Origin: an uncultured Bacilli bacterium
Lineage (GTDB): Bacteria > Bacillota_I > Bacilli_A > RF39 > UBA660
DNA: 64,000 bases
Direction: 5' to 3'
Assembly: GCA_944350485.1 (NCBI GenBank)
Contig: CALVPE010000074.1
Coordinates: forward strand, 13,989 to 77,988
The notes beneath the pieces were generated by a model. It had not been told where the DNA came from and made no database searches. It saw nothing but the letters and a program-made list of their open reading frames with translations. Numbering within the stretch: the stretch's first letter is position 1; each line of letters opens with the position of its first letter. Both the position numbers and the translations under genes were made by a program. Below, piece by piece: positions 1 through 56,814 of this stretch.

Positions 1-550
1 TTTCATCTAATAATAATTGAGCGACTGGTTTGCCAACTATATTTGAGCGACCAATAACACATACATTTTTACCCGTTAAATCTTCATTTATAGATTTAAT
101 TAATTTTACACAACCTTTTGGAGTACATGGTAATAATGACTTTTCTATATCAAAATCTCCAACGAATAATTTTCCAATATTTATTGGATGGAAACAATCA
201 ACATCTTTGTATGGATTAATTTTTTCTATAATTTTAGTAGTATTGATATGTTTAGGAAGTGGTAATTGAACTAAAATTCCATTCACTTCATCATTATTAT
301 TTAATTTTTCAATAATTTTAATTAATTCTTCTTCTGGTGTTTCTTGTGGCAATTCATATTTTAAAGATTTAATACCACATTTTTCACAAGCTTTTTCTTT
401 ATTTTTTACATATACTTTACTAGCTGGATCATCACCAACTATGATAACGGCAAGACAAGGTATTTTATTGCATTCATTTTTGATTTCATCAATTTTTTCT
501 TTAAGATTAGCTTTTATTTTATTTGCTAATTCTGTTCCACTAATAATCAT
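1..550 (-). CDS. folD: Bifunctional methylenetetrahydrofolate dehydrogenase/cyclohydrolase FolD, N-terminal ~183 aa. Gene continues past the left edge
   Basis: Minus-strand translation from ATG at 550: MIISGTELANKIKANLKEKIDEIK...GILVQLPLPKHI...GKNVCVIGRSNIVGKPVAQLLLDE. Classic FolD motifs. Not in the ORF track because there is no stop within the window. Confidence 0.85.
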   Translation of the reverse strand, partial: MIISGTELANKIKANLKEKIDEIKNECNKIPCLAVIIVGDDPASKVYVKNKEKACEKCGIKSLKYELPQETPEEELIKIIEKLNNNDEVNGILVQLPLPKHINTTKIIEKINPYKDVDCFHPINIGKLFVGDFDIEKSLLPCTPKGCVKLIKSINEDLTGKNVCVIGRSNIVGKPVAQLLLDE

Positions 551-722
551 GATTTCTTAAAAATATTAATATATTATAATATTAATATTAAAATATTTTT
601 TGTCAATGAAAAAACTCGGGAGCCACATTAAACTAGTATAAACTAAATAATGATACCTACACCGAGTATAGTATTTAATAATAAATCATAAATGCCACCA
701 TAACTAATGTAAGATATATTTT

Positions 723-971
723 TTAAATGTCAAGTCTTTTTTCCTTTAAGAATTGTTTAACATATTCTCTCTCTTCTAATATACTTTTAATTTTTTTGTT
801 ATGTGCTTCATAACCACCTTCATTATTAAAAATTAATGTTGTAATATCATTAGAAGGCTTAAAAGTTAATAAAAATTCTTCTTCAATATTCAATTGAATA
901 TTTAATTTTTCTATTTTATCTTTTGCTTGCTCCTTTGTATATTTCTTTCTATATCTCATTTTCTTTATCAT
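723..971 (-). CDS. hypothetical protein
   Basis: ORF only. Basic N-terminus. Confidence 0.35.
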   Translation of the reverse strand: MIKKMRYRKKYTKEQAKDKIEKLNIQLNIEEEFLLTFKPSNDITTLIFNNEGGYEAHNKKIKSILEEREYVKQFLKEKRLDI

Positions 972-1215
972 TTATTGCTAATATAAATTCTATTTCTGTT
1001 ATTGCTTTTTTTAAATCACTTTCTTTCTGTCCTTTAAAATTAGATCGCAATAAATATTCAACAGCATTAGAAAAATAATTAAATTCCATTCTGGAACATT
1101 CAATATTATTTTCTTTTAGTTTATTATCTACTGCTTGTAATATATTATTTACATCACAATCAACACCTTTTATATTAAATTGATAATGATTGTTTAAATT
1201 ATTATTTTTTTTCAT
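949..1215 (-). CDS. hypothetical protein
   Basis: ORF only. Overlaps the downstream ORF in operon fashion. Confidence 0.35.
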   Translation of the reverse strand: MKKNNNLNNHYQFNIKGVDCDVNNILQAVDNKLKENNIECSRMEFNYFSNAVEYLLRSNFKGQKESDLKKAITEIEFILAINDKENEI

Positions 1216-1265
1216 AATTTTTACCTTTATTTTTTTAAATATTTTTTTAAAAAAGAAATAATGTT

Positions 1266-2561
1266 TTATTTTTTTTCTATCTCTTTAATGTAATCAAAAA
1301 CACTATCCGAAAATCCAGATATATGTATATATCCTTGCTTGTAACCAACACCCCTTTGACAAGTTGAGACATTTATGATATAACTTTTTTCTGTCATTGC
1401 ATTTGGAATGGTATCTGATGTTTGTTCGTCTGTTATAATAATAATTCTATCATATTTAGTTTTTTTGTTAATAGAATTTAATGATTCTCCTAAATTTGTT
1501 CCCCAATGTCCTTGAGAATAATTTATAGCATCTCTTAAAGCAAATCCCCTTCTACTAGGAACTAATTTTTCTATTTGACTAAAAGTCCAAATTTCAACAT
1601 ATTCACTAATTTCTCTACCTATCATAGCTAATGAACAAGCATAATCTAAACAAGAAAATTTACTATTTTTTGAAGTACATTCCATAGAACCAGATACATC
1701 AACCAAAATAAGTGTTTTTCCAGAAATTTTATCTTTATTTTTACTCATATTTTTTAAAAATACTTTTTCTATTTCACTTTCAAAATTTGGATTCATAATA
1801 CCGGCTCTTATATAGTCAATAGGTAATAGCTTGTTTAAAGATATTTTTGATATTCTATCTTTTATTAATTTTTTATCAACACCACTTCTTGAAATTCCAG
1901 CAATATTTTTTAAGAAAGCCATATCAGGTATTTTATTTTTTAGAAGTAATTTTTCCCAAGCATTCTTCTTTTTTTCTATATCACTTCCAGCTTCTGATAT
2001 TAATACTTCCCATGTTTCTGGTGTTTTTAATGTTCCATTCATTAGTTTATTTATTGCTTCTGTTGGTTTTGGATGACATAAATTAGCAATATCTACCAAA
2101 TTATATTCTGCTTTTCTATTCCATTTTGCTAATTGAAATTCATCAAATTTAGTAAAAGCTTTTGCTAAACCTTTTTTAATTGAATTTGAAAGAGAATAAT
2201 TATTAGTTTTATATAAAGCTAAAAGCTCTCCCATGTCATCTGGCCTAGTTACAATTTCTTCAATTAAATCTTTTAAACCAGTTACACCTTTTGCTAATAA
2301 ACAACTAATCATATATAATGGGCAATGTCTAAGTTTCATATCAAACTTAGCTTTTTTAATTAAATCTATTATTTTTTGATTATCATTTATTGAATTTATG
2401 AGTGTTTGTATTCTTTCTGAAACTGATATTCCATTTTCATAAAAGCCATCTTCCCATAATAAACAAGCACAAACTGTTCTTTCAAGTTCTTCAAAAGCAT
2501 TTATTTTTGAAGCCTTACCATTTTCATAAGTAGTTAAAGTATTTTTTTTGTTTTTTTTCAT
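1266..2561 (-). CDS. Ro60/Rsr-like protein: TROVE-like N-terminal region plus C-terminal von Willebrand A domain
   Basis: C-terminal vWA MIDAS motif LILVDVSGSM...IIIITDEQT. N-terminal ...RTVCACLLWEDGFYENG...LPIDYIRAGI... parallels Ro60 FLCFGSEGGTYY.../...IHPFHILIAL.../LLAVDVSASM by eye. Confidence 0.55.
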   Translation of the reverse strand: MKKNKKNTLTTYENGKASKINAFEELERTVCACLLWEDGFYENGISVSERIQTLINSINDNQKIIDLIKKAKFDMKLRHCPLYMISCLLAKGVTGLKDLIEEIVTRPDDMGELLALYKTNNYSLSNSIKKGLAKAFTKFDEFQLAKWNRKAEYNLVDIANLCHPKPTEAINKLMNGTLKTPETWEVLISEAGSDIEKKKNAWEKLLLKNKIPDMAFLKNIAGISRSGVDKKLIKDRISKISLNKLLPIDYIRAGIMNPNFESEIEKVFLKNMSKNKDKISGKTLILVDVSGSMECTSKNSKFSCLDYACSLAMIGREISEYVEIWTFSQIEKLVPSRRGFALRDAINYSQGHWGTNLGESLNSINKKTKYDRIIIITDEQTSDTIPNAMTEKSYIINVSTCQRGVGYKQGYIHISGFSDSVFDYIKEIEKK

Positions 2562-2772
2562 TTTTTTTCCTATTGTTAATTAATAAATAGCAATAGGTTT
2601 TTCTTTAATCATTTTTGTGAAGAAAATTTTATTAAGTTATATAATATAATTACCCAAATATATGTAAACCTAATATTCACTATCACAAAAAATATAGCAA
2701 AGAATAACAAAAAAGATTTTTTAAAAATATACCTTATACTATGTAAATCTTTTTTTCACTATTGCTATACAT

Positions 2773-2801
2773 ATTTTAAAAAACTATTTTTTATTTGTCA
2801 A
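2773..2801 (-). promoter_or_regulatory. sigma70-like promoter (TTGACA-17-TAAAAT) for the Ro60-like gene
   Basis: Minus-strand TTGACAaataaaaaatagtttttTAAAAT, about 200 nt upstream of the start at 2561. Confidence 0.5.
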
Positions 2802-2808
2802 ATATTTT

Positions 2809-3423
2809 TTAATTAAACCATCTAACAATTGGTTCACCTTTAAAACCTTTTTGCCATACAAACCAAGCATAGCAAACAGCAGAACTACCAATATTAGAAA
2901 AATCACCATTCATAGCACATTTAATTCTAGATGAAGACACAAAAATATATTTTGGTGGATTGTTTTCAAAAAACTTTTTTCTTTCTTTACCTTCTAAAAA
3001 TTGAATTTTTAAAAACATACAAACATATCTACCTTCTTCAATTAATTCTAATGAGTGTTTACAAAAATCTAATGCCATAGAATATGGTGGATTAGTTACA
3101 ATATCACCATTCCATTTATTCTGTATCATTAAAAAATCTTCTCCATATCTATATGAAATACTAGGATAATAACCTCTATCAATTAAATCTGTTGCTAAAC
3201 CTAATTTGTTATGATCTTCAAATACTTTTGCTAAATGTCCACCACCCACACAATTCTCCCAAATATTATCTAATTGTGGCATTAATTCTAATAACATTTC
3301 ACCAGCTTTTGGGTCTGTTGCATAAAAAGCATTTTTTTCATAATCATGTTCGCAATGACTATTTGCACCTAAACATTTAAAAATAGAATTTTTATCTCCT
3401 GTCCAGTCTTTATTTTGTGTCAT
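2809..3423 (-). CDS. DNA methyltransferase (N6-adenine/N4-cytosine type, NPPY motif)
   Basis: DIVTNPPYS catalytic motif IV. Confidence 0.65.
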   Translation of the reverse strand: MTQNKDWTGDKNSIFKCLGANSHCEHDYEKNAFYATDPKAGEMLLELMPQLDNIWENCVGGGHLAKVFEDHNKLGLATDLIDRGYYPSISYRYGEDFLMIQNKWNGDIVTNPPYSMALDFCKHSLELIEEGRYVCMFLKIQFLEGKERKKFFENNPPKYIFVSSSRIKCAMNGDFSNIGSSAVCYAWFVWQKGFKGEPIVRWFN

Positions 3424-3434
3424 TTTTATTTTAA

Positions 3435-3884
3435 TTATTTATTAATAATAAAATTATAATGATTATTTGAATAAAAATATTTAAAAAGCCAAGATTCTTT
3501 TCTCATTATAGTATTTTGATACCAATCTCCTTCATTTTCTTCATTATTTTCAAAAAATTTATTAACAACTTTTCCATTATCTAAAACAATAGTTAATATT
3601 TGTCTAACTATTAATTTAAATTGACCTTTTAAAATTTTTATTTTATCTAATAAATCGCATAATATATCATTATTTTCATTTAATATAATATAAATTAATT
3701 CATGAATATTTATTCTATTAACTATATAAACATGTGTTAAATGTTTTATACTATCTTTGTTTTTTTCTTCATCTTCAACTTTTATGCAAAACTTACTAGA
3801 TTTAATTTCTACATTATCAATCATAATTTTTTCGGTTTCTTTATCAATTACACTACAATAATATATAAAATTATACTCTTTCAT
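3435..3884 (-). CDS. hypothetical protein
   Basis: ORF only. Confidence 0.35.
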   Translation of the reverse strand: MKEYNFIYYCSVIDKETEKIMIDNVEIKSSKFCIKVEDEEKNKDSIKHLTHVYIVNRINIHELIYIILNENNDILCDLLDKIKILKGQFKLIVRQILTIVLDNGKVVNKFFENNEENEGDWYQNTIMRKESWLFKYFYSNNHYNFIINK

Positions 3885-3892
3885 TTCTTTTT

Positions 3893-4618
3893 TTAATTAT
3901 TTAACAATCTTTCATTCATAATATTATAATAAAAATTATTAATTTCAATACCTATAAAATTTCTATTGGTATTTTTGCATGCTATACCTGTTGAACCAGC
4001 ACCAGCAAAACAATCTAAGACTAAATCATTTTCTTTTGTTGTTAGTTTGATTAAAATTTCTAATAATTTTATATTTTTTTCATTAGGATGCAAATTTTTT
4101 GATGCTCTTTTCTCTGTTGCAAAACATATTTTAGTATCCCAAAAGTTAGGATAAGCATAAGTAAATGGTTTAGGATTTTTATTTCTTTTATCTTTTAACC
4201 ATTCTTTTGAAGTAGGTATGAAATCAACTTCATTTAATGGTTTTCCCTTTCCTTTTGAAAATACTAAAATTGGTTGAAATTGAAATCCAAAATTATTTTT
4301 AGGACTAGGTGATCCATTATAAAAAGAACGAGTTGCTATAATGTTTTTATAATTAAATCCAGCTTTAATACCTTCTTGTATCCAATAATGAATTGTTTTT
4401 ACACCAACAAATAAAATCAAATAAGAATCTTCCTTTAATATTCTATACCATTCTTTATACCATAAAGGCATTTGTTCTAAAATATTAGATAATGAATCAT
4501 CATAGAAATTGTTTTTAAAATTAACTCCATATGGTGGGTCTGTTAATATTAAATCTATACTATTGTTGGATATATCTTTTATTATATCTAAACAATCACC
4601 ATTATATAAACCTGTCAT
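3893..4618 (-). CDS. DNA methyltransferase, beta-class (N-terminal DPPY, C-terminal FxGxG)
   Basis: LILTDPPYG near the N-terminus and DCFAGAGSTGIAC near the C-terminus. This is the circularly permuted beta-class N4/N6 MTase layout. Confidence 0.8.
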   Translation of the reverse strand: MTGLYNGDCLDIIKDISNNSIDLILTDPPYGVNFKNNFYDDSLSNILEQMPLWYKEWYRILKEDSYLILFVGVKTIHYWIQEGIKAGFNYKNIIATRSFYNGSPSPKNNFGFQFQPILVFSKGKGKPLNEVDFIPTSKEWLKDKRNKNPKPFTYAYPNFWDTKICFATEKRASKNLHPNEKNIKLLEILIKLTTKENDLVLDCFAGAGSTGIACKNTNRNFIGIEINNFYYNIMNERLLNN

Positions 4619-4930
4619 TAAGATACTATTCCTTTATATTGTTAATATTTTTGCCATATAATTCATAATATTTTTCTATATTATCACAAATATTTATAGT
4701 ATATATTGTATATTCAGAACAATATCTTCTTCTTCCTACTAAACATTTATAAATTTGTTTTTCTATTTTATTATTAGATTTATTGCATAATTCTATTAAT
4801 TTTTCTTTTTCTATTTTTGTTTGTTTATTAACTTTAATAGAACTAACAATTGTAAGAAAAATTCCTAAAAATAAAATAATATATGAAAAAGTTAATGTAA
4901 ACTTTATTGCATTTATTTTTATAAAACCCC

Positions 4931-5371
4931 CTAATATTCAGTTTTTTTATGTATAGTTTTCCATTGATTAGCTTTTTTCCATTCAATGTAATCAAAATAA
5001 TTTCTACAACCACTTTTACCAAAAAGACCTTTCCAATATGTCATTGGTTCATTTTTTAAAAGATTAGAATATTGTTCTAATATATATAAAATATTTTTAT
5101 GTTCTACTTTTTTTCTTAATTTATATTCTTGTAAGTAGGCTTTTAATAAGTTTAACAACCACAAAACATTACCATTACTTTCTTGTAGCCATTTTTGACA
5201 AGGATGATTTTGATAACATTCTTTATATAATCTATTATCTTCAACACCCTTTAATCTAAAAAAAGTGCTTAACAATTGTGTTGTTTCTAAAATCATTTTA
5301 TTTAATAAGATATCATCTAATTCTTTTGCATTAGCTTCAAAATTATTTATATAAAACATGAATATATTCAA
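4931..5371 (-). CDS. hypothetical protein with weak resemblance to the T4 endonuclease V (DenV) pyrimidine-dimer glycosylase family
   Basis: Size about 146 aa. C-terminal PMTYWKGLFGK resembles the endoV C-terminal PTWYKYYGK. The N-terminal catalytic region is not convincingly matched. Confidence 0.3.
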   Translation of the reverse strand: MNIFMFYINNFEANAKELDDILLNKMILETTQLLSTFFRLKGVEDNRLYKECYQNHPCQKWLQESNGNVLWLLNLLKAYLQEYKLRKKVEHKNILYILEQYSNLLKNEPMTYWKGLFGKSGCRNYFDYIEWKKANQWKTIHKKTEY

Positions 5372-5462
5372 ATTAATTCCTTGTTATTTTTTATAATATT
5401 AAAACCATTTTTTTAAAAGTCAATATAATATCTATATTTTATTGTTAGTCAACTACCCCCAG

Positions 5463-6622
5463 CTAAAGCAAGGAGCTTGTCAGTTCACAGTGAGAAACAA
5501 CTTTCTCAACTCCCTGACCATAAAGGGACGTTGCATCCCCATATTTTCCATAATTGAGTATATTTACAGAAGCATTATAATCTCTATTATGAATAGTGCC
5601 ACAATTAGGACAAGTCCATTCTCTAATAGATAAATCTTTTACTTTATCATTTTTATAACCACAATGATTACAAATTTGACTAGAAGCAAAAATCTATCTA
5701 CTTTTTTTATAGTTCTTCCATACATTTTTGCTTTGTATTCTAACATACTAACAAATTTACTAAAACTACATTCCATTATCTTTTCTGCTAATTTATAATT
5801 TTTAATCATCCCACTAACATTAAGATTTTCAAGATATATAACTTGGTTCTCGTTTATAATATCTTTACTAATATTATGTAGATAATTATTTTTTATATTT
5901 TCAATTTTTTCATATATTTTTGTTAATTTTAATCTTGTTTGTTTTCTTCTATTACTTCCTTTTTTTCTTCTCATTAATTCTCTTTGTGTTCTTTTTAGTT
6001 TCTTTTTTAATTTAATTTGTTTTTTATCTTTCATTATGTTTTTATATGTTTTACCATTAGAGCAAACTAATAATTCCTTTATTCCTAAATCAATTCCAAT
6101 TTCATTTTTAGTAATTGATAAATATTTTCTATTTTCTTCAACTAATATAGAAACAAAATATTTGTTAGTTGGTGTTTTTGATATTGTAACACTTTTTATA
6201 TTTCCTTTTACTTCTCTATGTTTTTTTATTTTAACATATTTTATTTTTGGCAATTTTATTTTATTATTTTGTAATTTTATATTGTTATTGACATTGTTAG
6301 TTTTATATGTTTGCTTTCCATTTTTACTATGAAATTTTGGTAATCTTTGTTTTCCTTTATAAAAATTCTTATAAGCAGTCTCTAAATCAATTTTAGCATT
6401 ACATAATGCTAAACTATCAATATCTTTTAACCATTTATATTTTTCTTTGTAATATGATAAAGAAAATAATTTTCTCTGTATTCCATATTCTTTATATTCA
6501 TTATAATTATAATTACTTTGTTCTAAATATTTATTATATATAAATCTAGTAGCACCAAAACATTTCTCAAAATATTCTTTTTGAGTTTTATTTGGATATA
6601 ATCTAAATTTATATGCTAACAT
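5463..6622 (-). pseudogene. tnpB: tnpB (TnpB/OMEGA RNA-guided nuclease family) interrupted by a 1-nt frameshift in a homopolymer run
   Basis: N-terminal MLAYKFRLYPNKTQKEYFEKCFGATRFIYNKYL is canonical TnpB. The ORF in the track stops at 5639. One T added to the T5 run (plus-strand A-run around 5688-5692) restores ...[52 protein letters not shown]..., the zinc finger plus RuvC-III, ending at 5463. Confidence 0.8.
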
Positions 6623-7080
6623 TATTTTTCCTGTTCTTCTATATACTTTACTAATTTTTGTAAACTAATATTTCCACTTGTTGCTAAATAATAACTATTG
6701 CTCCAAAAATGTTTACCCCATAACTTATCTGCTAAATATTGTTTATATTTATTTCTTATATATTTACTTGTTGACCCTTTTATAGTATTTATATATTTTT
6801 TTATGTCTAATGTAGGTTTTGTTTTTATCATTATATGTATATGGTCTTTATCAACTTCTTGTTCTATAACTTCAACATCAAAATTTTTTGATAAATCAAT
6901 TATTTTTGTTTTTAAATCATCTACAAGTTTATTATTATCAAATATTTTTTTTCTATATTTTACTACTAATATCAAATGATATATTAGTAAAAAAACAGAA
7001 TTACAACTTTTATCTAATTTATTCATATTTATTTTTTTTGTTATACTAATATTATAATAACCAAAAATATAAAAAGTCAA
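6622..7080 (-). CDS. tnpA: IS200-like Y1 (HuH) transposase TnpA
   Basis: HIHIMI (HuH motif) and SNSYYLATSGN. Size 152 aa. Confidence 0.85.
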   Translation of the reverse strand: MTFYIFGYYNISITKKINMNKLDKSCNSVFLLIYHLILVVKYRKKIFDNNKLVDDLKTKIIDLSKNFDVEVIEQEVDKDHIHIMIKTKPTLDIKKYINTIKGSTSKYIRNKYKQYLADKLWGKHFWSNSYYLATSGNISLQKLVKYIEEQEK

Positions 7081-7263
7081 GAAAATATTTTATTTTTAGC
7101 AATTTATCCCCCACTTAAAAGCAGGGGAATTCTTGCTATCTTACATTTAAATTTTTAATACTTTTATAAACATATTCTAAAAAGCTTATAAGCAATAAAA
7201 TTGGAATAACAAATAATTGCAATATAAATTCCAATATATCTATTATATAATGTATTATCTTTT

Positions 7264-7758
7264 TTAAATCTTCTTGCATATATTAAAATTATTAGTAATA
7301 ATTATTTCATCTTGTTTATTATATTTAAAATAATCTGATAAAATTTTTAAAGCTTGTTTACTATTAAAAACTAAACCTTGTTCTTCATCACAAGACAAAC
7401 CTACTAAAATACATCCCCTTGAATCACATCTCCAACAGTTGCCTTTTTTATCTTTAAAATATCTAACACTATTTCCGGCATGTATTCTAATATATTTTCT
7501 TATATTTTTAACATTATGATTATCATCATATTCTATACAGGCATCTAAACCATTATTTTCAACTTTTACACATTCACCAAATGTATAGCTTTTAAAATAT
7601 TTTCCAATATATTTACCTTCTGGTATTGATGAAATATTATTTTGATTATTTTTATAAGGTAATTCCAATGTAAAAATATTTACTTTTTTTTCACCTAAAT
7701 TGTTTATTTTTCCAATTATAAAATTATTATTAATTATATATCTATCTATTTTTATCAT
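7264..7758 (-). CDS. YkuD/L,D-transpeptidase-fold-like protein (possible cell-wall-active enzyme)
   Basis: RIHAGN...(about 20 aa)...SRGCILVG reproduces the L,D-transpeptidase His ... S-x-G-C-[IV] catalytic arrangement. Own sigma70-like promoter at about 7775-7815. Confidence 0.35.
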   Translation of the reverse strand: MIKIDRYIINNNFIIGKINNLGEKKVNIFTLELPYKNNQNNISSIPEGKYIGKYFKSYTFGECVKVENNGLDACIEYDDNHNVKNIRKYIRIHAGNSVRYFKDKKGNCWRCDSRGCILVGLSCDEEQGLVFNSKQALKILSDYFKYNKQDEIIITNNFNICKKI

Positions 7759-7837
7759 AACAAAAACAAAATTAGTATAATAATATATATTATATTATAA
7801 TTTTATTAAGTCAATATTTATAGGTAAAATATTTTAC

Positions 7838-8314
7838 CTATTTTTTACCTTTATTTACCTTTTCAAGATTTTTTAAATATAAATATTTTTGTTTTCTTAA
7901 TTCTTTTTGTTTTTTTAAAATATTTTTTTCATATTCAGTTTTTTCCCTTTTTATTTTAGGCTTATGAATTAAATTTTTATTTTTTGTATTAATAGTTATT
8001 TTTTTTCCAGAAAGTTCCTGATATTTATTAATCATAAATTCATCAATAGTCAATATATTATCTTGTAAAAAATCTTTAATATTATTTGTATTATTAATTA
8101 TTTCTGGTTCTTTTAAAAAACCATCATGTATTTTTCTATGACAACACATACAAACTGGCAATATATTTTTTTCATCCCAGCGATATAATAAATTTGCTCT
8201 TCTAATTATATGATGACCTACAACATTTTTTGTAGTTCCACAATAATAACATCGTTTTTTACTAGCTCTTTCTTGTATTATTTGATCTAATTTTTTCATT
8301 AAATTTTTATTCAT
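7838..8314 (-). CDS. HNH endonuclease
   Basis: CYYCG...VGHHIIRR...CMCCHRKIH (Cys4 plus HNH). Confidence 0.8.
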   Translation of the reverse strand: MNKNLMKKLDQIIQERASKKRCYYCGTTKNVVGHHIIRRANLLYRWDEKNILPVCMCCHRKIHDGFLKEPEIINNTNNIKDFLQDNILTIDEFMINKYQELSGKKITINTKNKNLIHKPKIKREKTEYEKNILKKQKELRKQKYLYLKNLEKVNKGKK

Positions 8315-8321
8315 AATATTC

Positions 8322-10511
8322 CTATTTTTTGCATTTCCATGAAAATAAAGCTTTTCCAGTAATAATATTTCCGGTAACTCTATTTATTAAACAATCTTTA
8401 AATCCTTCTTCTTTTGCTAATATATAATCTTCTGCTTTTCCAAATTTATCATAAGTTTTTGTACAGTCAACAAAAATTGGTTTTTTACCTTCTTGAAATC
8501 TTACAAGTCTTCCAACAGATTGTATTAACAAAGACAAAGACATCATTTGTCTAGCATTTATTATACAATCTAAACTAGGGCAATCAAAACCAATATTTAA
8601 AGCATTAACATTAACTAATATTTGTTTATTATTATTTTTAAATTTTTCAATTATTTCTTGTCTTTGTTTTTTAGGTGTATCTCCATAAATTTCCATAACT
8701 TCGTAACTCTTTTTTCTTAAAGTATCACATATTATATTAGCTTGTTGTTTACAACTAGTTATTATAAGAATCTTATTTTTTATAGGAAAAAATTCTTCAA
8801 CTGCTTTTATTGTATTATCTATTCTATCTTGTCTAGTAGTATATTTAACTATACTTTCTTCCGTATAATCACATCCTGTTGAATTTACTTGTAATTGTGA
8901 CAAATCAAAACCATTACTATAATCTATATATTCTGGTTTCATAATATAACCAGCTTCCATTAAATCCTTTAATTCCATTTTATAAACAATAGATCCAAAG
9001 AAAAATGGATGAATACGATTTAACATCATTAGAGAACCTGTATAGTATTTTTCACCACCATCATAACAAAATCTATTTACAAGACGATACGGGGTAGCGG
9101 AAAAAGAAAGTACTCGACTACATTTTATTTCTCCAAAAAATTTTGAATACATACCATTTGTATTTTGAGGATTTACTGTATGACAATTACCAGAAATAAA
9201 AGTCAATCCATCACTTCTAACTACTATTTTATGATTTGGGACTTCTACACAATAAACGTAATTATTATAATCTTGGATTATTTGTTTATTCGCTGCCTGC
9301 AAACTTCTATAATCGCTATCAAAAAAAATTACTCTATATAAAGTTTTTCTATTGTCGCCTCTTTCTCTTTGCTCCATTACTGTTCTATATCCAGCTTGTG
9401 TAGCTATTGCATTAACAAAATCTACATTATCTTTTATAATAGAAGAATAACTTTTTGGCATTTCATTTTTTCTAGTTCCATCCCATAAACATATTTCTTC
9501 TATAAAATCTCTTGCTCTATCATACCCCATATTTATATTAAAACATTTAGATAAATATTTTGCTCGTTTATTTAAAAAATCATTACCTAATAAAATATGC
9601 CATGCTTCATATCCTTCTCTTGTTATATTTAATTGTTTAATATTTGTCATGTTTTTTGTTAATAATTTCCATCTATCTTTTTTTCTTTGTTTTTTTAAAG
9701 AAATACTATAACGACCAACATCTTTTTTATTACGGTTAAAACTAACTGAACCATCAGCTTGTAAAGCAACCAAGACTCTTTCAAAATCTGTAAGTAAAAC
9801 ATTATTTCCTGTCCCCTTTCCTGCACAAATAAGTTGATTTTTACTAGAAGCACTATGTCCGACTGTTAAATCTTTTACTAAACAATTATTTATTGTATAT
9901 TTGTCCGAACTAATTTTTCTTCTATAAACTTGATTATGATTTGGCGTCATTAAGCAACCTCTGATATTTTTATAATTAGAGAAATTTATTTTTATCATTT
10001 CACCATTATGCTTCCTTTTTATGTATCTCAATGGTTTCACAAATTCTATTTTACCATCATCATATTGCGCAACTAATTCTGTTTGGTCTAAATCTTTAAA
10101 TTTTTTAAAACCTCTATCAGTTAATATTTCTACACCACCATCAAAACACTCATCTATTATGCAATTTTTTACATCTTTAAATAATTCTGGATGTTTATAT
10201 GCAGATTGTATAGTAGAAAATATAACATTTTTATCTGTTTCTTTTCTGTCTTTTCCAGCAGAAAAAACACTAGCTTCATAACCATAACTTTCATATTTAG
10301 ATAAATTTTGTTCTAATATTTCTTGTGATGGTTGAAATACTATTGTTTTATCTTGTAATTCTTTTGCTATATTTGCTATTACTATTGACTTTCCAAAAGC
10401 TGTACATGCTTGCATTATAATTGGTTTTTTAGAATTTTGTAAATAGTATAAGCCAGTTTTAACAGCAACTTTTTGATATTCTCTTAATTGTATCATTTTT
10501 TTTCTTTCCAA
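8322..10511 (-). CDS. SF2 DNA helicase (DECH box) interrupted by an intein
   Basis: Walker A QACTAFGKS, motif II IIDE|...|CHT, motif III LSFSATP. A 321-aa insertion lies exactly inside the DECH box. Confidence 0.75.
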   Translation of the reverse strand: MERKKMIQLREYQKVAVKTGLYYLQNSKKPIIMQACTAFGKSIVIANIAKELQDKTIVFQPSQEILEQNLSKYESYGYEASVFSAGKDRKETDKNVIFSTIQSAYKHPELFKDVKNCIIDECFDGGVEILTDRGFKKFKDLDQTELVAQYDDGKIEFVKPLRYIKRKHNGEMIKINFSNYKNIRGCLMTPNHNQVYRRKISSDKYTINNCLVKDLTVGHSASSKNQLICAGKGTGNNVLLTDFERVLVALQADGSVSFNRNKKDVGRYSISLKKQRKKDRWKLLTKNMTNIKQLNITREGYEAWHILLGNDFLNKRAKYLSKCFNINMGYDRARDFIEEICLWDGTRKNEMPKSYSSIIKDNVDFVNAIATQAGYRTVMEQRERGDNRKTLYRVIFFDSDYRSLQAANKQIIQDYNNYVYCVEVPNHKIVVRSDGLTFISGNCHTVNPQNTNGMYSKFFGEIKCSRVLSFSATPYRLVNRFCYDGGEKYYTGSLMMLNRIHPFFFGSIVYKMELKDLMEAGYIMKPEYIDYSNGFDLSQLQVNSTGCDYTEESIVKYTTRQDRIDNTIKAVEEFFPIKNKILIITSCKQQANIICDTLRKKSYEVMEIYGDTPKKQRQEIIEKFKNNNKQILVNVNALNIGFDCPSLDCIINARQMMSLSLLIQSVGRLVRFQEGKKPIFVDCTKTYDKFGKAEDYILAKEEGFKDCLINRVTGNIITGKALFSWKCKK
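9186..10148 (-). other. Intein (321 aa) with LAGLIDADG homing-endonuclease domain, inserted in helicase motif II
   Basis: Begins at C of CFDGGVEILTDRG and ends ...FISGN followed by +1 Cys of CHTV. Block B has T..H in CLMTPNHNQ, the LAGLIDADG-like motif is VLVALQADGSVS, and block F is YVYCVEVPNHK. Excision restores IIDECHTV. The penultimate residue is Gly rather than His. Confidence 0.7.
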
Positions 10512-10954
10512 ATTTTTAATATTTTTAAATTTCTTTCCCTATATCTTGAATGTTGATTTATATTTTTCTTATTAAATTTTTTTAAATATTGTTTTTTAAA
10601 TTTATTAAAAGCTTCATTAAAATATTTATTTTTATTTGTTTTAAAGTCAAAAGTTTCTTCAAATTTTATTCCAAGTTTTTTATATTTATATTTTTTATAA
10701 TAAAAAGCATCTAAATTTTTTTTATATTCTTTATTTTCTTCTCTCCATTTTTTTGCATATTTAGATTGACATTCTTTACATTTTGTTCTATGGCCCACTT
10801 CTATTTTTATTTTTCCATTTTCTGTTATAAATTTTTTTGTTTCTTTATGAAATTCACTTAATCTTTTCCATTGTTTACAAACTCTACATTGTTGTAAAAG
10901 AATACCATGTTCTCTTTTTCTAAAAGAGTTTTTATATTCATAAATATTTTCCAT
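10493..10954 (-). CDS. hypothetical basic protein with two CxxC pairs (zinc-ribbon-like)
   Basis: CRVCKQ...CKECQ. Overlaps the helicase start. Confidence 0.4.
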   Translation of the reverse strand: MENIYEYKNSFRKREHGILLQQCRVCKQWKRLSEFHKETKKFITENGKIKIEVGHRTKCKECQSKYAKKWREENKEYKKNLDAFYYKKYKYKKLGIKFEETFDFKTNKNKYFNEAFNKFKKQYLKKFNKKNINQHSRYRERNLKILKIWKEKK

Positions 10955-11008
10955 AATAAAAATTAATATTTTTTACAATAATAAAATATTATATTTAAAA
11001 ATCAAGTG

Positions 11009-11224
11009 TTAATTAAAATAATTTTTTAAAGCTTCTTTATCTTGATTAGATTTTTTTAGAGCATTATCATATTTAATGATACATTCTCCATAAGTGTTAT
11101 TTTCACAATCAACATATATTTTTTGCAATCTTATATAATTTAAGGGAATATCATTATGTACAAAATTATGTTTACAAGATACTAATAAAATTAAAATAAA
11201 TAAAAATAAAATATTTTTAAACAT
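11009..11224 (-). CDS. putative o-spanin (outer-membrane lipoprotein)
   Basis: Signal peptide with lipobox LLVSC. Small mature domain. Overlaps the preceding coiled-coil type II membrane protein by 8 nt. Confidence 0.45.
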   Translation of the reverse strand: MFKNILFLFILILLVSCKHNFVHNDIPLNYIRLQKIYVDCENNTYGECIIKYDNALKKSNQDKEALKNYFN

Positions 11225-11525
11225 CTTCTTTTAATATTTTTAATAAATCTTCACTAACTTTTTGATTAACACAAAAATTTTTATCATTTTTTTCTAATTT
11301 ATTAAGCTTATTTTTTAATACATTATATCTATTAATATAATATTTATTTTCTTCTTCACTTTTATTAAAATCTTCTTTTAATATATTATTTTTTTCTTGA
11401 ATATATAATAAATCTTCTTGTAAATTTCTATTAATATATTGTTCCATTTTTATTTTTTCTTTTAACAAAGATATATAAATAATTAAACATAATATAATAC
11501 TTATAAACAATAATTTTTTTATCAT
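11217..11525 (-). CDS. putative i-spanin (N-terminal TM plus periplasmic coiled coil)
   Basis: N-terminal TM LLFISIILCLIIYISLL followed by a charged heptad-like region. Paired with the lipoprotein gene downstream. Confidence 0.45.
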   Translation of the reverse strand: MIKKLLFISIILCLIIYISLLKEKIKMEQYINRNLQEDLLYIQEKNNILKEDFNKSEEENKYYINRYNVLKNKLNKLEKNDKNFCVNQKVSEDLLKILKEDV

Positions 11526-11526
11526 T

Positions 11527-11949
11527 TTATATAAAAAATTTTTGAATAATAATCATTAACACTGCACCACCAGCACCTGATAAAAAATTATAAAATATTT
11601 TTATATTTTTTTTAGTAGTAGTAATATCTTTTACAAAATCTTTAATTTCATTTATAGCCCCCTTTAATTCCTTAATTTCATTAATTAAACCTTTTGAATA
11701 ACAGCCATCTCCTTTTAAAAACATATTTATTTGTTCTAAATTTTTTTCTATTTGTTCTATTTTATGTTTTTGTATATTTTGTTCATCTTCTATTTCTTTT
11801 ATATTTTCATATATTTTAGATTTGCAATCCTTATTTATCATATTTTTATTTAACATATCAGCTTGTCTCTCCAAAATTTCATTGTGGTTATTGGTTGTTT
11901 TTACAAATGTTTCTACAACTTGTTTTAAATTATCTAATGTTTCCTTCAT
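11527..11949 (-). CDS. hypothetical coiled-coil protein with C-terminal TM segment
   Basis: C-terminal FLSGAGGAVLMIIIQKFFI. Confidence 0.35.
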   Translation of the reverse strand: MKETLDNLKQVVETFVKTTNNHNEILERQADMLNKNMINKDCKSKIYENIKEIEDEQNIQKHKIEQIEKNLEQINMFLKGDGCYSKGLINEIKELKGAINEIKDFVKDITTTKKNIKIFYNFLSGAGGAVLMIIIQKFFI

Positions 11950-12635
11950 TTTCTAAATTTCTTTATTTTTAAAATTAATAAATAAATACAAGGGAATATA
12001 TATTCTGACTTATATTCATATCCTTTAATTTGATTTAAAACATATCTTAAACTTCTTAAACAATTGAATCTAAAATAAAATGTTCTTTTTTGTCTAGCAT
12101 GTTGTGATAAAAGATTTTTTTCCCAATCTCCATTTAAATTTTTAAAATTAAATCCAGTATCTATAATTAAATATTTTTCTTTTAAATAATTTAGAGTTTT
12201 ATCAGTAAAAGGTATTTTTTGTAAAGTTTTAGCTTCATATCTCATCTGATATATATTTTTATTTATAATTAAACCTGCAGAACTATATGATAGACCAAAT
12301 ATTGATAATATAAATTGTTTTATTTTTTTAGGTTTATAAAAAATAATAAGTACATTATTATTATTTATTTCATCGCTTTTTATATAAGAAAATAATTTAC
12401 AAAATAAAAAATAAAATAAAAATAAAGATTGTATTATATAATATATAGAATAATTAATATTAAATATATAATTTAAAAAAGAAAAAAATATATCTATTAT
12501 AAAAAATATATTTAATGCTCTTAATATAAAATATTTATACTCTAATTTTAAATAATTATCAATTAGAATATATAATAAAATTATATAATATAAATTTTCT
12601 ATAATAAAATTAAACATTACTTCTATTGTCATCAT
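11946..12635 (-). CDS. hypothetical polytopic membrane protein
   Basis: Several hydrophobic segments in the N-terminal half. Confidence 0.35.
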   Translation of the reverse strand: MMTIEVMFNFIIENLYYIILLYILIDNYLKLEYKYFILRALNIFFIIDIFFSFLNYIFNINYSIYYIIQSLFLFYFLFCKLFSYIKSDEINNNNVLIIFYKPKKIKQFILSIFGLSYSSAGLIINKNIYQMRYEAKTLQKIPFTDKTLNYLKEKYLIIDTGFNFKNLNGDWEKNLLSQHARQKRTFYFRFNCLRSLRYVLNQIKGYEYKSEYIFPCIYLLILKIKKFRK

Positions 12636-21532: not shown

Positions 21533-22153
21533 ATGACAATATTAATAAAAAATAGATTTAATAATTTATCAATGGATAATTTAATAATTAATGATTATAA
21601 TAAAAATTTAATTACATATTTAAAAGATTATAAAAAAAATATTGAAGAAAAAATAAATAATTACGAAAATATTATTTTAACTGGAAGTGTTGGAAGTGGA
21701 AAAACTTTTATTATGAGAAGTTTTTTTAATGATATCCAAAAAATTAAAATTAAAAGACAAAAAAGTTTTTATTATAATCAAATAGAAGAAGAAGATTATA
21801 TTTCTTCTATGTATGTAAATATGTATGATTTAATAAATGAATTAAGAAAAGAATATAAAGGTGAACATGTTGATAGTTTATTATTTACATGTGATTTGTT
21901 ATTTATTGATGAAATAGGTATACAATTTTGTACAGATGCAGAAAGACAAATACTTTTTAAATTAATAAATTATAGATATGAAAATTTTAAACCAATATTT
22001 TTAATTTCAAATCATCCTTTAAGGTCCACCAATGAAATTAAAGGTCTTTATTATATTTTAGGTGATAGAATAATGGATAGAATTTGTGATTGTAATTGTA
22101 AAGTATTTTGTTTTAATAATATAGAATCAATGAGAAAAAAATGTTTGAAATAA
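21533..22153 (+). CDS. DnaC/IstB-like helicase loader ATPase
   Basis: Walker A GSVGSGKT and Walker B LLFIDEIG. Confidence 0.7.
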   Translation: MTILIKNRFNNLSMDNLIINDYNKNLITYLKDYKKNIEEKINNYENIILTGSVGSGKTFIMRSFFNDIQKIKIKRQKSFYYNQIEEEDYISSMYVNMYDLINELRKEYKGEHVDSLLFTCDLLFIDEIGIQFCTDAERQILFKLINYRYENFKPIFLISNHPLRSTNEIKGLYYILGDRIMDRICDCNCKVFCFNNIESMRKKCLK

Positions 22154-48894: not shown

Positions 48895-49122
48895 TTATTT
48901 TTTACTTATTATTAAAACAGAAATTATAAAAAATATAAACATTAGAGAATATTTTAAAATATCAAAATATGTACTTGCATTTAATAAAAAAAATGGTGTA
49001 TAAATCATACATGCAACACAAATAATAATACATATATTGCTAATATTTTCTAATATTTTTATTATAATATTTTTTAAAAAAAGATAAAATTTATTTAAAA
49101 TCATTGATATTTTTTTAAACAT
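48895..49122 (-). CDS. small hydrophobic protein between terminase and portal
   Basis: Two TM-like segments. Confidence 0.3.
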   Translation of the reverse strand: MFKKISMILNKFYLFLKNIIIKILENISNICIIICVACMIYTPFFLLNASTYFDILKYSLMFIFFIISVLIISKK

Positions 49123-55169: not shown

Positions 55170-56225
55170 TTATTTTTTTAATAAATATTTATTAGAAATA
55201 ACTTTAAAAGATAAATCGTAGTTTAAACTTCTAATAACAAAACCTTCTCTTAATGATTGTTTATTAATTAATGAATTACCATCAGCTTCATTTAATATAT
55301 CATCAATATTATCAAATTTAAGAGTTTTTCTATCAAATAAAGGCACAATATCAAACAAATTATTAAAATATTGCATAAGACTATAGTCTATTTTTTGTCC
55401 ATTTATAAAAATATTAAATATATATAGTTTATTTTCTGTTAATTTATAGTTATTTTGTTGTATATTTGGACCTATAAGCTCACCTTGTAATACCACACTG
55501 TTAACTTTATCATTTAAAAGAGATAAAGTTTTATTTTTTAAGTCATGTTTTTCTACATAATCTACATATTTTCTAGTATCTTTATTTGGTTTTTGCATAT
55601 TAATTTGATAATTTCTAGTACAAATACCAAATTCTATGACTTCTCTCTTAAAAAATAAATATTTTCTCTTTTGTACTTTTCTAGCAAATAAAGTAAATGA
55701 TGTACCATCTAGCTTTTCTGTAATATAAAACTTATCTTCTACATCTTTTAGAACTTTTGTCATATTTTGTATTCTTTCTTCATCTGTTTTTTGTATCCAA
55801 TTAGGAAAAGGTAGATAAGAATTGTTTTTCTTTTTATTTTTATTAGCCTTTTTTTCATCTTCATACTTTTCAAATTTAGTAATACCTAGTAAATAAGTGA
55901 CATCTTGACCTTCTTTTATTTTTTTTATTTCAGTAAATTTTGAAATAGGCATAGCTAATCCTTGTGATAAAACACCAGCCATTTTAATAGTTTTAATTTT
56001 ATAACCAACTTTTTCAAATTGTTTAAATCTTTGATCTTCTTTTGGTAATAAGCTATCTATTTCAAAATAAACAACTAAATCTCCCTTTTTTATTTCATTT
56101 TTATCTACTATAACTTTCCATCCTAATATGGTTGCTAATGCAATCTTGTCTTTATTAGGAATTGGTTGTACATCTAAAACTCTTTCTATATGTGCTAATT
56201 TTCTAGTCATTTTATTTTTTCTCAA
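55170..56225 (-). CDS. ATP-dependent RNA ligase with N-terminal OB-like domain (Rnl5 / DraRnl-like architecture)
   Basis: Nucleotidyltransferase motif I ITEKLDGTS (KxDG). N-terminal approximately 140-aa region preceding the NTase core. Confidence 0.55.
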   Translation of the reverse strand: MRKNKMTRKLAHIERVLDVQPIPNKDKIALATILGWKVIVDKNEIKKGDLVVYFEIDSLLPKEDQRFKQFEKVGYKIKTIKMAGVLSQGLAMPISKFTEIKKIKEGQDVTYLLGITKFEKYEDEKKANKNKKKNNSYLPFPNWIQKTDEERIQNMTKVLKDVEDKFYITEKLDGTSFTLFARKVQKRKYLFFKREVIEFGICTRNYQINMQKPNKDTRKYVDYVEKHDLKNKTLSLLNDKVNSVVLQGELIGPNIQQNNYKLTENKLYIFNIFINGQKIDYSLMQYFNNLFDIVPLFDRKTLKFDNIDDILNEADGNSLINKQSLREGFVIRSLNYDLSFKVISNKYLLKK

Positions 56226-56544: not shown

Positions 56545-56814
56545 GCACTTTTTGCTGTGATATGTCTAATCTGACACCATACAGACAATAAGTATAATAC
56601 AAATAAATAGTATAACATAGATAATTTTCTTTATTACATAGTATAATTTTATAAGGTGAATTTATAAAGTCAATAATCTTTGATTAGTTTTGTTAAAAAA
56701 ATTGTGTTGGTGGGAGATGGGGCTACCCACTTTTGTTATGCCCCTTAAACTCATTTTTTTCAATGCTAGGGGGGTATTTACATTAAAAATATTTTTAAAA
56801 AATTAAAAATAAAG

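What the first reader, a model, noticed from the sequence alone, without database searches (positions are those of the whole stretch)
1266..2561. Phage-borne Ro60/Rsr-like TROVE+vWA protein. Partner Y-RNA not found in the window
The C-terminal MIDAS vWA motif is clear. The N-terminal segments parallel Ro60 TROVE motifs. Bacterial and phage Ro60 orthologues are usually encoded beside structured Y RNAs (YrlA-type, tRNA-like). They function with RNA repair enzymes. This phage also encodes an RNA ligase at 55170..56225.

The flanking intergenic DNA here (2562-2808, 1216-1265) is almost pure AT and shows no GC-rich stem structure. The cognate RNA, if any, is elsewhere or highly diverged. The gene has its own sigma70-like promoter (2773-2801).
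Basis: partly seen in the sequence, partly recalled or inferred. Interest (0 to 1): 0.65.

Follow-up and report, generated by a model that had tools for sequence, protein, structure and literature searches.

The report
Phage Ro60 protein with Y RNAs

Summary
The ORF at 1266-2561 (-) encodes a 431-aa Ro60/Rsr homologue. It passes the Pfam thresholds for TROVE and vWA_Ro60 and matches PHROG 850. Its MIDAS motif is complete. Its AlphaFold model matches Ro60 structures over its full length, best the Thermus phage phiLo Ro60.

The window is 64 kb of an ~82.9-kb uncultured myovirus at 22% GC. No tRNA gene was found.

The claim that no partner RNA is present is wrong. The 247-nt leader (2562-2808) holds two tandem ~80-nt hairpins, u1 (2692-2770) and u2 (2612-2691). 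They are on the gene's strand and directly follow the strongest sigma70-like site in the region.

Covariance models built only from hairpins next to TROVE genes of other phages gave two significant hits in the whole window. These scored 37-40 bits (E about 1e-7); the next best scored 11 bits. The same model gave 247 hits in 87 related loci, all co-oriented with the TROVE gene.

The hairpins share the known Y-RNA layout: a terminal stem, a 1-nt bulge, a GNYGAA motif, a second stem and YUAY. Both lack the tRNA-like module carried by their closest counterparts in related contigs.

RNA binding and function are untested. Verdict: new member of a known kind.

The parts
1266..2561 (-). Ro60/Rsr-like protein gene, 431 aa (TROVE HEAT-repeat ring plus vWA)
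   Evidence: ORF. Pfam TROVE 38.4 bits and vWA_Ro60 29.6 bits, both above their cut-offs. PHROG 850 E 1.9e-29. phmmer to phiLo phage Ro60 9l5y/9kop E 2.2e-18. AF2 pLDDT 89.2; Foldseek to Ro60 structures TMq 0.64-0.73.
1743..2504 (-). HEAT-repeat (TROVE) part of the ring, residues ~20-273. The last helix, residues 420-430 (nt 1272-1304), would complete this domain after the vWA insertion.
   Evidence: Secondary structure of the AF2 model: 17 helices, H22-273, and a terminal helix H420-430. The split-domain layout is as described for phiLo Ro60. Ring closure itself was not measured on the model.
1317..1727 (-). vWA domain, residues ~279-415, with a complete MIDAS: D288-x-S290-x-S292 (nt 1686-1700), T355 (1497-1499) and D378 (1428-1430)
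   Evidence: Pfam vWA_Ro60 covers residues 283-382. The MIDAS residues are invariant in 47 homologues. They align with the DVSGSM, GT and ITDE stretches of phiLo Ro60, whose metal ligands are D322, S324, T391 and D416.
2692..2770 (-). Y-RNA-like unit u1, 79 nt. Layout: S1 GUAUAGCAA/UUGCUAUAU, bulged U, AG:CU, 5' loop UGAA, S2 ~10 bp, UUACAUAG, small AU-rich apical hairpin, then a U-run.
   Evidence: CM R1 hit at 2766..2696, 40.4 bits, E 9.4e-8. CM R2 37.5 bits, E 6e-8. Full model length, no non-standard pair. MFE -18.8 kcal/mol, z -4.17. 100% identical in variant L030.
2612..2691 (-). Y-RNA-like unit u2, 80 nt. Layout: S1 UUUUUGUGA/UCACAAAAA, bulged U, AG:CU, UGAA, S2 UAUUAGGUU/AACUUAAUA, UUACAUAU, AU-rich apical region.
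   Evidence: CM R1 hit at 2687..2616, 38.6 bits, E 2.8e-7. CM R2 37.7 bits, E 5.1e-8. z -2.28. Both ends align to tRNA-bearing units of L036 and L059 around an internal deletion.
2773..2801 (-). sigma70-like promoter candidate TTGACA-17-TAAAAT. The expected start falls at about 2764-2768, at the 5' end of u1.
   Evidence: Best-scoring site in 1-5500, 11 of 12 positions. This is a consensus match only; the overall site count is not above shuffles.
2569..2597 (-). Third hairpin, CCUAUUG...CAAUAGG. Its 3' arm overlaps the likely Shine-Dalgarno AGGA (2568-2571), 6 nt before the ATG. A possible translational control element.
   Evidence: Fold -6.8 kcal/mol, z -4.40. Function is inferred and was not tested. 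It is not matched by the Y-RNA models.
55170..56225 (-). RNA ligase of the DRB0094 (DraRnl) type. Context only; not adjacent to the TROVE gene.
   Evidence: Pfam PF21189 OB-fold 86.2 bits plus PF09414 RNA_ligase 69.8 bits. TIGR02306 144.1 bits against a cut-off of 151.15. The next ORF, 54714-55160, is an SNase-like nuclease.

Best explanation
The gene encodes a compact (431 aa) phage Ro60/Rsr-type ring protein. A TROVE HEAT-repeat horseshoe is joined to a vWA domain with a full MIDAS site. Its 247-nt leader encodes two tandem ~80-nt Y-RNA-like hairpins, u1 and u2, on the same strand.

The most likely mechanism has four steps:
1. Transcription starts at the sigma70-like site at 2801-2773 and produces u1, u2 and the TROVE mRNA. 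They may form one precursor that is later processed, or u1 may be partly terminated at its own stem plus U-run.
2. Each hairpin binds the outer face of the ring. Binding would use the bulged helix and the (A/G)G(U/C)GA(A/G) strand near its 5' end, as in Xenopus Ro-Y RNA and as shown by gel shift for phiLo phage Ro60 with Yrl1 and Yrl2.
3. The resulting RNP acts on host or phage RNA during infection. It could gate the central cavity for misfolded or damaged RNAs, or dock onto the host 3'-5' exonuclease PNPase and change its activity.
4. Unlike about two thirds of related loci, this phage's Y RNAs carry no tRNA-like module. They correspond to the 'long hairpin' class (YrlB/Yrn2-like).

Shown here: the protein family and predicted fold, RNA homology by covariance model, position and strand, base-pair covariation in the family, and sequence conservation between two phage variants.
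Inferred: expression, processing, physical binding, and the PNPase or RNA quality-control role.
For: Protein:
- Pfam TROVE and vWA_Ro60 are both above their cut-offs. PHROG 850 'RNA-binding protein' E 1.9e-29.
- phmmer to the phiLo phage Ro60 chains 9l5y/9kop gives E 2.2e-18 over residues 9-390, with the MIDAS stretches aligned.
- The AF2 model has pLDDT 89.2 and pTM 0.82. Foldseek top hits are all Ro60: phiLo E 2.5e-18, Xenopus Ro TMq 0.73, D. radiodurans Rsr.
- 86-92 phage records hold homologues, annotated as TROVE or Ro-like. More than 3,400 metagenomic homologues were found.

RNA:
- Relatives with 52-58% identical proteins carry 3-4 tandem units upstream of the gene. These show GGCGAR...UUACAUMG motifs and permuted tRNA-like T and D arms, i.e. 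YrlA-type.
- Model R1, built from 42 units of other phages, gives only two significant hits in the 64-kb window with filters off: 40.4 and 38.6 bits. The next hit scores 11.3 bits.
- Model R2, which also excludes the nearest AU-rich relatives, gives 37.7 and 37.5 bits against 11.3.
- R1 finds 247 units in 87 loci, all on the TROVE strand. In 73 of 80 IMG/VR loci there are 182 upstream, 28 downstream and 0 inside the ORF.
- Covariation: 93.6% of cells are paired against 59% in shuffles and at most 49% when the partner is slid. The pair next to the bulge is GC in 120 sequences, AU in 26, and nothing else in any. The window units carry the AU form.
- u1 plus u2 are 159/159 identical in variant L030. 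The rest of the leader is 77/88 identical and the flanking ORFs 94-98%.

Literature:
- GNCGAAN0-1G and YUAY motifs, Y RNAs within 4 kb on the same strand, and two Y-RNA classes per species (PMC4201824).
- phiLo Ro60 binds two upstream Y-like RNAs and host PNPase (PMC12135203).
Against: - There is no expression, processing or binding data for this uncultured phage.
- The window units deviate from the published motif: AGUGAA against GNCGAA, with no trailing G.
- They are almost entirely A and U, so stems form easily by chance. u2's fold z-score is only -2.3.
- The seed units were picked with pairing criteria. The covariation counts on A4 and A5 are therefore inflated by selection and by fitting to the model.
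- The model E-values are rough because calibration was short.
- The units may stay part of the mRNA leader as cis-acting Ro-binding sites rather than become free Y RNAs.
- The PNPase link is extrapolated from D. radiodurans, Salmonella and phiLo.
- About 350 bp of the ~82.9-kb genome could not be fetched and searched.
Confidence: 0.8

Rival explanations
1. u1 and u2 are not free Y RNAs. They are cis-acting parts of the TROVE mRNA leader: an attenuator or terminator (a stem followed by a U-run) and/or autoregulatory binding sites for the protein. Together with the third hairpin that covers the ribosome-binding site, they would tune TROVE expression.
For: The units lie between the best promoter-like site and the start codon. 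u1 is followed by UUUUU. Hairpin 3 overlaps the Shine-Dalgarno sequence (z -4.4). In M. smegmatis the Y RNAs come from one precursor upstream of rsr, so co-transcription is usual.
Against: Homologous units in other phages also lie downstream of the gene (28 of 210 in the IMG/VR loci) or kilobases upstream, for example L032 131-210 and L008 10-218. That placement does not fit a pure leader function. Many units carry tRNA-like modules typical of stand-alone YrlA RNAs. No intrinsic terminator was called in 1-5500.
Confidence: 0.12
2. u1 and u2 are decaying remnants. They would be former Y-RNA or tRNA cassettes that lost their tRNA-like bodies and no longer function, and the protein would work without a dedicated phage RNA, for instance on host RNAs.
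For: Both units align at their two ends to tRNA-bearing units of L036 and L059, with the middle deleted. The genome has no tRNA at all. The motif is degenerate (AGUGAA).
Against: All 16 modelled pairs are intact in both units. The GG:CC to AG:CU change is compensatory and recurs in 26 family members. The units are 159/159 identical between two variants whose surrounding sequence has diverged by 2-12%. 28 of 87 loci show only short units, so the short form is a regular state.
Confidence: 0.06
3. The protein is only a generic vWA/MIDAS protein and the TROVE resemblance is spurious. This was the refutation criterion the first reader proposed.
For: The individual Pfam scores are modest (38 and 30 bits). 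NCBIfam has no match.
Against: Full-length matches to Ro60 structures by both sequence and predicted fold. PHROG 850 E 1.9e-29 over residues 100-429. Co-occurrence with Y-RNA-like units across 87 loci.
Confidence: 0.02

Closest known systems
Thermus phage phiLo Ro60 (phiRo60; PDB 9kop, 9l5y) with Yrl1/Yrl2 (PMC12135203)
   Same: It is the closest solved structure by both sequence (E 2.2e-18) and predicted fold (E 2.5e-18). Both have a HEAT ring plus an inserted vWA with a metal site. Both have two Y-like RNAs in the non-coding DNA upstream of the gene, with a CGAA-type motif in a bulged 5'/3' stem.
   Different: Only 22% identical. The window protein is 431 aa against 502 aa. The window RNAs carry UGAA rather than CGAA and are about 80% A+U. 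Binding to RNA and to PNPase is shown for phiLo and only inferred here.
Bacterial Rsr with YrlA/YrlB (S. Typhimurium, M. smegmatis) and Yrn1/Yrn2 (D. radiodurans) (PMC4201824)
   Same: The Y RNAs lie within 4 kb on the same strand. They share a 5' motif GNCGAAN0-1G followed by YUAY and a long stem made by the two ends. Each species has at least two Y RNAs, and one class is a plain long hairpin. The predicted fold matches Rsr 2nvo.
   Different: No unit in this phage has the T and D arms that define YrlA. The motif is AGUGAA. There is no rtcB/rtcA operon, and the only RNA ligase is a DRB0094-type enzyme about 30 kb away. The protein is about 100 aa shorter than Rsr.
crAss001 gp96 and other phage TROVE proteins of PHROG 850 (CcrColossus gp139, RsoM2USA gp57, Xanthomonas phage Tenjo)
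   Same: 35-40% identical over the full length. They belong to the same compact clade. Model R1 finds co-oriented Y-like units beside each of them. The crAss001 gene is an early gene (PMC8375218).
   Different: Those phages carry tRNA genes or tRNA-like units next to the TROVE gene. This phage has none.

Membership tests
Ro60/Rsr (TROVE + vWA) proteins | TROVE (HEAT-repeat) domain detected above the curated threshold | tested here: met
   PF05731 38.4 bits against a cut-off of 23, E 1.1e-9. The same family is precomputed for homologues P0001-P0120.
Ro60/Rsr (TROVE + vWA) proteins | Ro60-type vWA domain with MIDAS residues DxSxS...T...D | tested here: met
   PF25045 29.6 bits against a cut-off of 27.7. 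D288, S290, S292, T355 and D378 are invariant in 47 sequences and align with the corresponding phiLo stretches.
Ro60/Rsr (TROVE + vWA) proteins | Ring architecture: helical repeats closed by a vWA domain inserted before the last helix | tested here: met
   Prediction only. AF2 pLDDT 89.2 with the order helices 22-273, vWA 279-415, helix 420-430. Full-length Foldseek matches to 9kop, 1yvp, 2i91 and 2nvo, TMq 0.64-0.73. The central hole was not measured.
Ro60/Rsr (TROVE + vWA) proteins | Cognate Y RNA encoded nearby on the same strand | tested here: met
   Two covariance-model hits at 2766..2696 and 2687..2616, 55-205 nt upstream, on the same strand.
Ro60/Rsr (TROVE + vWA) proteins | Binds Y RNA and misfolded RNA; associates with PNPase | not testable with these tools
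   Needs biochemistry. Shown for phiLo Ro60, D. radiodurans and Salmonella in the literature.
YrlA-type bacterial Y RNA | GNCGAAN0-1G motif near the 5' end | tested here: not met
   The window units read AGUGAAA and AGUGAAU. The family consensus in related phages is GGUGAAG or GGCGAAG. G-to-A at the first position is compensated by the partner base (GC 120, AU 26).
YrlA-type bacterial Y RNA | Conserved YUAY after the first stem | tested here: met
   UUAC is present in both units, as UUUACAUAG and UUUACAUAU. The feature is defined.
YrlA-type bacterial Y RNA | tRNA-like domain with T and D arms | tested here: not met
   No T-loop or D-arm sequence is present in u1 or u2. ARAGORN and the Rfam tRNA model find nothing in 82.5 kb of the genome. 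Related units in L027, L028, L034, L036 and L059 do have these arms.
YrlB/Yrn2-like 'long hairpin' Y RNA | Long stem made by the 5' and 3' ends that carries the Ro-binding motif, with a small apical loop and no tRNA-like module | tested here: met
   Folds of u1 and u2 and all 16 model pairs. The class is described in PMC4201824. There the loop is called pyrimidine-rich; here it is simply AU-rich.
Rfam Y_RNA or any other Rfam 15 family | Match at the gathering score | tested here: not met
   No relevant hit in the window at gathering or at E<=10, in the leader alone or in the rest of the genome. The obvious YrlA-type units of relatives are also unmatched apart from partial tRNA-model hits.

The most novel reading that the evidence does not exclude
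The compact (~430 aa) phage Ro60 clade may come with a modular RNA family that has not been catalogued. It would consist of arrays of 2-8 tandem, co-oriented cassettes that share one Ro-binding stem: S1, a bulge, GG:CC, YGAAG, S2, GUUACUUC...YGCUUGUUCC. The apex of each cassette would be one of three things: a permuted tRNA-like body (YrlA type), a complete normal-order tRNA that ARAGORN calls as a gene, or nothing. Under this reading, phage Ro60 would work on pre-tRNA-like transcripts held by their leader-trailer helix. The window phage would be the stripped-down end state, showing that the tRNA part is dispensable.
Probability: 0.4. Interest if true: 0.55.

Novelty: new member of a known kind. 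Interest (0 to 1): 0.35.

Why it matters
Phage Ro60 homologues and their Y-like RNAs are already known. Y RNAs were predicted in 22 phages in 2014, and a phage Ro60 structure with two upstream Y-like RNAs was published in 2025. This locus therefore adds a member rather than a principle.

Its value is practical:
- Extremely AT-rich, tRNA-less Y RNAs escape Rfam and tRNA finders, yet a clade-specific covariance model recovers them.
- The locus offers a minimal pair, a 431-aa ring and ~80-nt hairpins, for studying Ro-Y RNA recognition without a tRNA-like module.
- The same model marks unannotated Y-like arrays beside the TROVE genes of well-studied phages such as crAss001, CcrColossus and Xanthomonas phage Tenjo.

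Tried and rejected
- Rfam at gathering score and at E<=10 on the window, on the leader alone and on the rest of the genome gave only chance hits: psbA 3'UTR, mir-308, snoRNAs, Ysr197.
- ARAGORN on the window and on the extensions found no tRNA.
- Megablast of 1-12000 against phages found nothing. The terminase is at most 25% identical to that of any cultured phage, so host and taxon stay unknown.
- A scan of reference genomes found only two distant TROVE loci, so this genome is not among the species representatives.
- I first took folD at 549..1 (-) for a host gene marking a prophage edge. I rejected this because the ~82.9-kb contigs are circularly permuted and phage genes continue beyond folD.
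- A search for GC-rich islands as ncRNA candidates found the TnpB-associated region and a hairpin at 56710-56775, but nothing Y-like.
- My regex-plus-pairing unit finder gave about 40 chance hits in this AT-rich window. I used it only to collect seeds from other loci, not as evidence.
- The first MAFFT seed alignment (A3) had ragged 3' ends and was replaced by end-trimmed alignments (A4, A8).
- MAFFT misplaced the 3' end of u1 in A6. The correspondence of u1 to the L059 and L036 units rests on reading the sequences.
Full report
**The observation**

The ORF at 1266-2561 on the minus strand is real and encodes 431 aa. Pfam places it in TROVE (38.4 bits, cut-off 23) and in the Ro60-specific vWA family PF25045 (29.6 bits, cut-off 27.7). 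PHROGs places it in phrog_850, 'RNA-binding protein', at E 1.9e-29.

phmmer against PDB sequences finds only the TROVE protein of Thermus phage phiLo (9l5y, 9kop) at E 2.2e-18. The alignment runs over residues 9-390, and the DVSGSM, GT and ITDE stretches line up. In an alignment of 47 homologues, D288, S290, S292, T355 and D378 are invariant. These are the MIDAS positions; phiLo Ro60 uses D322, S324, T391 and D416 to hold a metal ion.

An AlphaFold2 model built on that alignment is confident (pLDDT 89.2, pTM 0.82). It shows 17 helices, then a vWA sheet at residues 279-415, then a last helix. Foldseek against the PDB returns only Ro60 structures at the top: phiLo (E 2.5e-18), Xenopus and human Ro60 (TMq 0.71-0.73), and D. 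radiodurans Rsr.

**The genome**

The window has 22% GC. It encodes a terminase, portal, tail sheath, tape measure and baseplate hub, so it is a myovirus.

The exact protein occurs on metagenomic contigs of 82,865 and 82,896 bp that start at different points. Those contigs are identical to the window where they overlap. The window is therefore 64 kb of a circular or permuted genome of about 82.9 kb.

Together with loci L019 and L024, I could read 82.5 kb of it. No tRNA gene was found. No cultured phage is close.

The RNA ligase at 55170-56225 is real and of the DRB0094 type. It lies about 30 kb from the TROVE gene on the circle.

**The missing Y RNA**

Rfam finds nothing.

I looked at relatives instead. 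The protein has more than 3,400 metagenomic homologues, mostly 420-445 aa long. In contigs whose proteins are 52-58% identical (L027, L028, L034), the gene is preceded by 280-530 nt of non-coding DNA. That DNA holds 3-4 tandem units on the gene's strand.

Each unit has the same layout:
- an outer stem made by its two ends
- one bulged base
- two pairs, GG:CC
- a 5' loop CGAR opposite a U-rich 3' loop
- a second stem
- UUACAUMG
- an apical module

In some units the apical module is a permuted tRNA-like body: a T arm GGUUCGAnUCC, a closed acceptor-like hairpin, and a D arm UAGCUCAGU-GGUAGAGCA. This is the published description of YrlA, including its GNCGAAN0-1G and YUAY motifs (PMC4201824). Other units have only a short hairpin, like YrlB or Yrn2.

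The window's own leader contains two such units:
- u1 (2692-2770): GUAUAGCAA-U-AG-UGAA-AAAAAGAUUU-ACAUAG...AAAUCUUUUU-UGUUAUU-CU-UUGCUAUAU
- u2 (2612-2691): UUUUUGUGA-U-AG-UGAA-UAUUAGGUU-UACAUAU...AACUUAAUA-AAAUUUU-CU-UCACAAAAA

**The statistical test**

I fetched 80 further TROVE loci from IMG/VR with 1.5-kb flanks. From loci other than this phage I collected 42 short units and built covariance model R1.

With filters off, over both strands of the 64-kb window, R1 gives exactly two significant hits. They are 2766..2696 (40.4 bits, E 9.4e-8) and 2687..2616 (38.6 bits, E 2.8e-7). Both cover the full model with no non-standard pair. The next hit scores 11.3 bits, E 1.8.

A second model, R2, was built from 33 units and leaves out the closest AU-rich relatives. 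It gives 37.7 and 37.5 bits against 11.3. The E-values are rough because calibration was short, but the 26-bit gap to the background is clear.

**Behaviour of the RNA family**

Across 100 loci, R1 finds 247 units at E<=0.01, and every one is on the TROVE strand. In the 80 IMG/VR loci, 73 have units: 182 upstream, 28 downstream, and none inside the ORF, which makes up about 28% of each locus.

On the model-based alignment, 93.6% of cells are paired. The figure is 59% after shuffling and at most 49% when partners are slid. All 16 pairs show double changes. The pair next to the bulge is G-C in 120 sequences, A-U in 26, and never anything else. The window units have the A-U form.

Two caveats apply. 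The seeds were chosen with pairing criteria, and the alignment is fitted to the model, so these counts are upper bounds. The strand bias, the positional bias and the conserved 3' motif YGCUUGUUCC were not imposed by the selection.

**Conservation in a second isolate**

Locus L030 carries a variant of the same phage. u1 plus u2 are 159/159 identical between the two. The rest of the leader is 77/88 identical, the upstream ORF 94.1%, the downstream ORF 96.6% and the TROVE ORF 98.1%. At the TROVE gene's own rate, zero changes in 159 nt has a probability of about 0.05. At the leader's rate the probability is far lower. This calculation is my own inference.

**What is particular here**

The nearest RNA relatives are in L036, L038 and L059, whose proteins are 54-55% identical. 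Their units share the AUAGUGA form and near-identical stem sequences, but they are 116-142 nt long.

The counterpart of u1 carries a YrlA-type body. The counterpart of u2 carries a complete normal-order tRNA-like body, which ARAGORN calls as tRNA-Val or tRNA-Ser. In the window both bodies are missing and are replaced by short AU-rich loops.

This state is not rare. 28 of 87 loci showed only short units, although that figure is inflated: the model favours short units and the flanks were short. L027 and L034, for example, do have long units. I therefore treat the window as a regular 'short-only' variant, not as an oddity.

**Transcription**

The best sigma70-like site in 1-5500 is TTGACA-17-TAAAAT at 2801..2773. 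It would start transcription at the 5' end of u1. The total number of such sites is not above chance in this AT-rich DNA.

u1 is followed by a U-run. A third hairpin (2569-2597, z -4.4) covers the likely Shine-Dalgarno sequence. A single promoter driving u1, u2 and the gene would match M. smegmatis, where the Y RNAs are cut from one precursor upstream of rsr. All of this is inference.

**Mechanism and what is not shown**

By analogy, the hairpins would bind the outer rim of the ring through the bulged helix and the YGAA strand. The RNP would then engage misfolded or damaged RNA, or the host PNPase. The analogies are Xenopus Ro-Y RNA, Rsr-Yrn1-PNPase, and phiLo Ro60, which binds Yrl1 and Yrl2 and attenuates Thermus PNPase.

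The crAss001 homologue is an early gene. This fits a role at the start of infection.

Binding, processing and the target were not tested and cannot be tested here. The main rival reading is that the units act in cis within the mRNA leader. The units found downstream of, or kilobases away from, the gene in other phages argue against that as the general role.

**Verdict**

The protein is a new member of a known phage family. The supposed absence of its RNA partner came from looking for GC-rich or tRNA-like structure in a 22%-GC genome. Interest is modest.

The covariance model and the Y-like arrays it reveals beside the TROVE genes of crAss001, CcrColossus and Tenjo are the most useful by-products.

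Noticed in passing
L036 687-802; L059 332-448 and 1259-1374; L011 4824-4957; L009 4155-4317: Some Y-like units enclose a complete normal-order tRNA that ARAGORN, or the record's own annotation, calls as a gene. Examples are tRNA-Val at L036 706-778, tRNA-Asn and tRNA-Ser in L059, tRNA-Asn at L011 4824-4894, and the annotated tRNA-Gln of CcrColossus. The Ro-binding stem would then be formed by the tRNA's leader and trailer.
   Followed up: partly
L010 (crAss001) 5909-5988, 6003-6076, 6084-6227: The 900-nt 'empty' gap downstream of crAss001 gp96 (TROVE) holds two R1 hits and a 144-nt match to the tRNA model with a large insertion. None is annotated in the record. No paper in the searched library mentions Y RNAs in crAss001.
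   Followed up: partly
L009 (CcrColossus) 3748-4939; L011 (Tenjo) 4364-4957; L043; L067: Arrays of 4-7 tandem co-oriented Y-like units fill the non-coding DNA upstream of the TROVE gene in several phages.
   Followed up: partly
L003, L007, L012, L013, L014, L015: Phage TROVE/Ro-like genes sit inside or next to tRNA gene arrays in many unrelated phages, including Atuin, Alone3, Neville and RHph_TM30. The window phage has no tRNA gene at all.
   Followed up: partly
window 1-549 (-), complete in L019 2533-3390: The phage genome carries a full-length FolD (methylene-tetrahydrofolate dehydrogenase/cyclohydrolase; Pfam THF_DHG_CYH plus its C-terminal domain). It lies two small genes downstream of the TROVE gene and looks like an auxiliary metabolic gene.
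   Followed up: partly
window 5442-7080: An IS200/IS605-type element lies inside the phage: TnpB (OrfB_IS605, 5639-6622) and a Y1 transposase (6622-7080). A GC-rich stretch (48% GC, 5442-5549) follows TnpB where its guide RNA would be expected. A second TnpB copy lies just outside the window (L019 4406-5365).
   Followed up: no
window 56710-56775: A GC-rich island (45-67% GC) with the hairpin GUGGGAGAUGGGGCUACCCAC lies in the 437-nt divergent intergenic region between the leftward and rightward gene blocks. It matches neither a Y RNA nor any Rfam family. Its function is unknown.
   Followed up: no
window 49115-51688, 8322-10511, 22141-24180: The terminase (857 aa) and two helicases (729 and 679 aa) are unusually long and give split or foreign PHROG matches in their middle or N-terminal parts. 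This would fit inteins or fused domains.
   Followed up: no
window 2809-4618; L030, L032, L035: One or two DNA methyltransferase genes (N6_N4_Mtase, and D12-class in L032) lie directly upstream of the TROVE gene in the window and in several AT-rich relatives. This looks like a conserved gene order.
   Followed up: no
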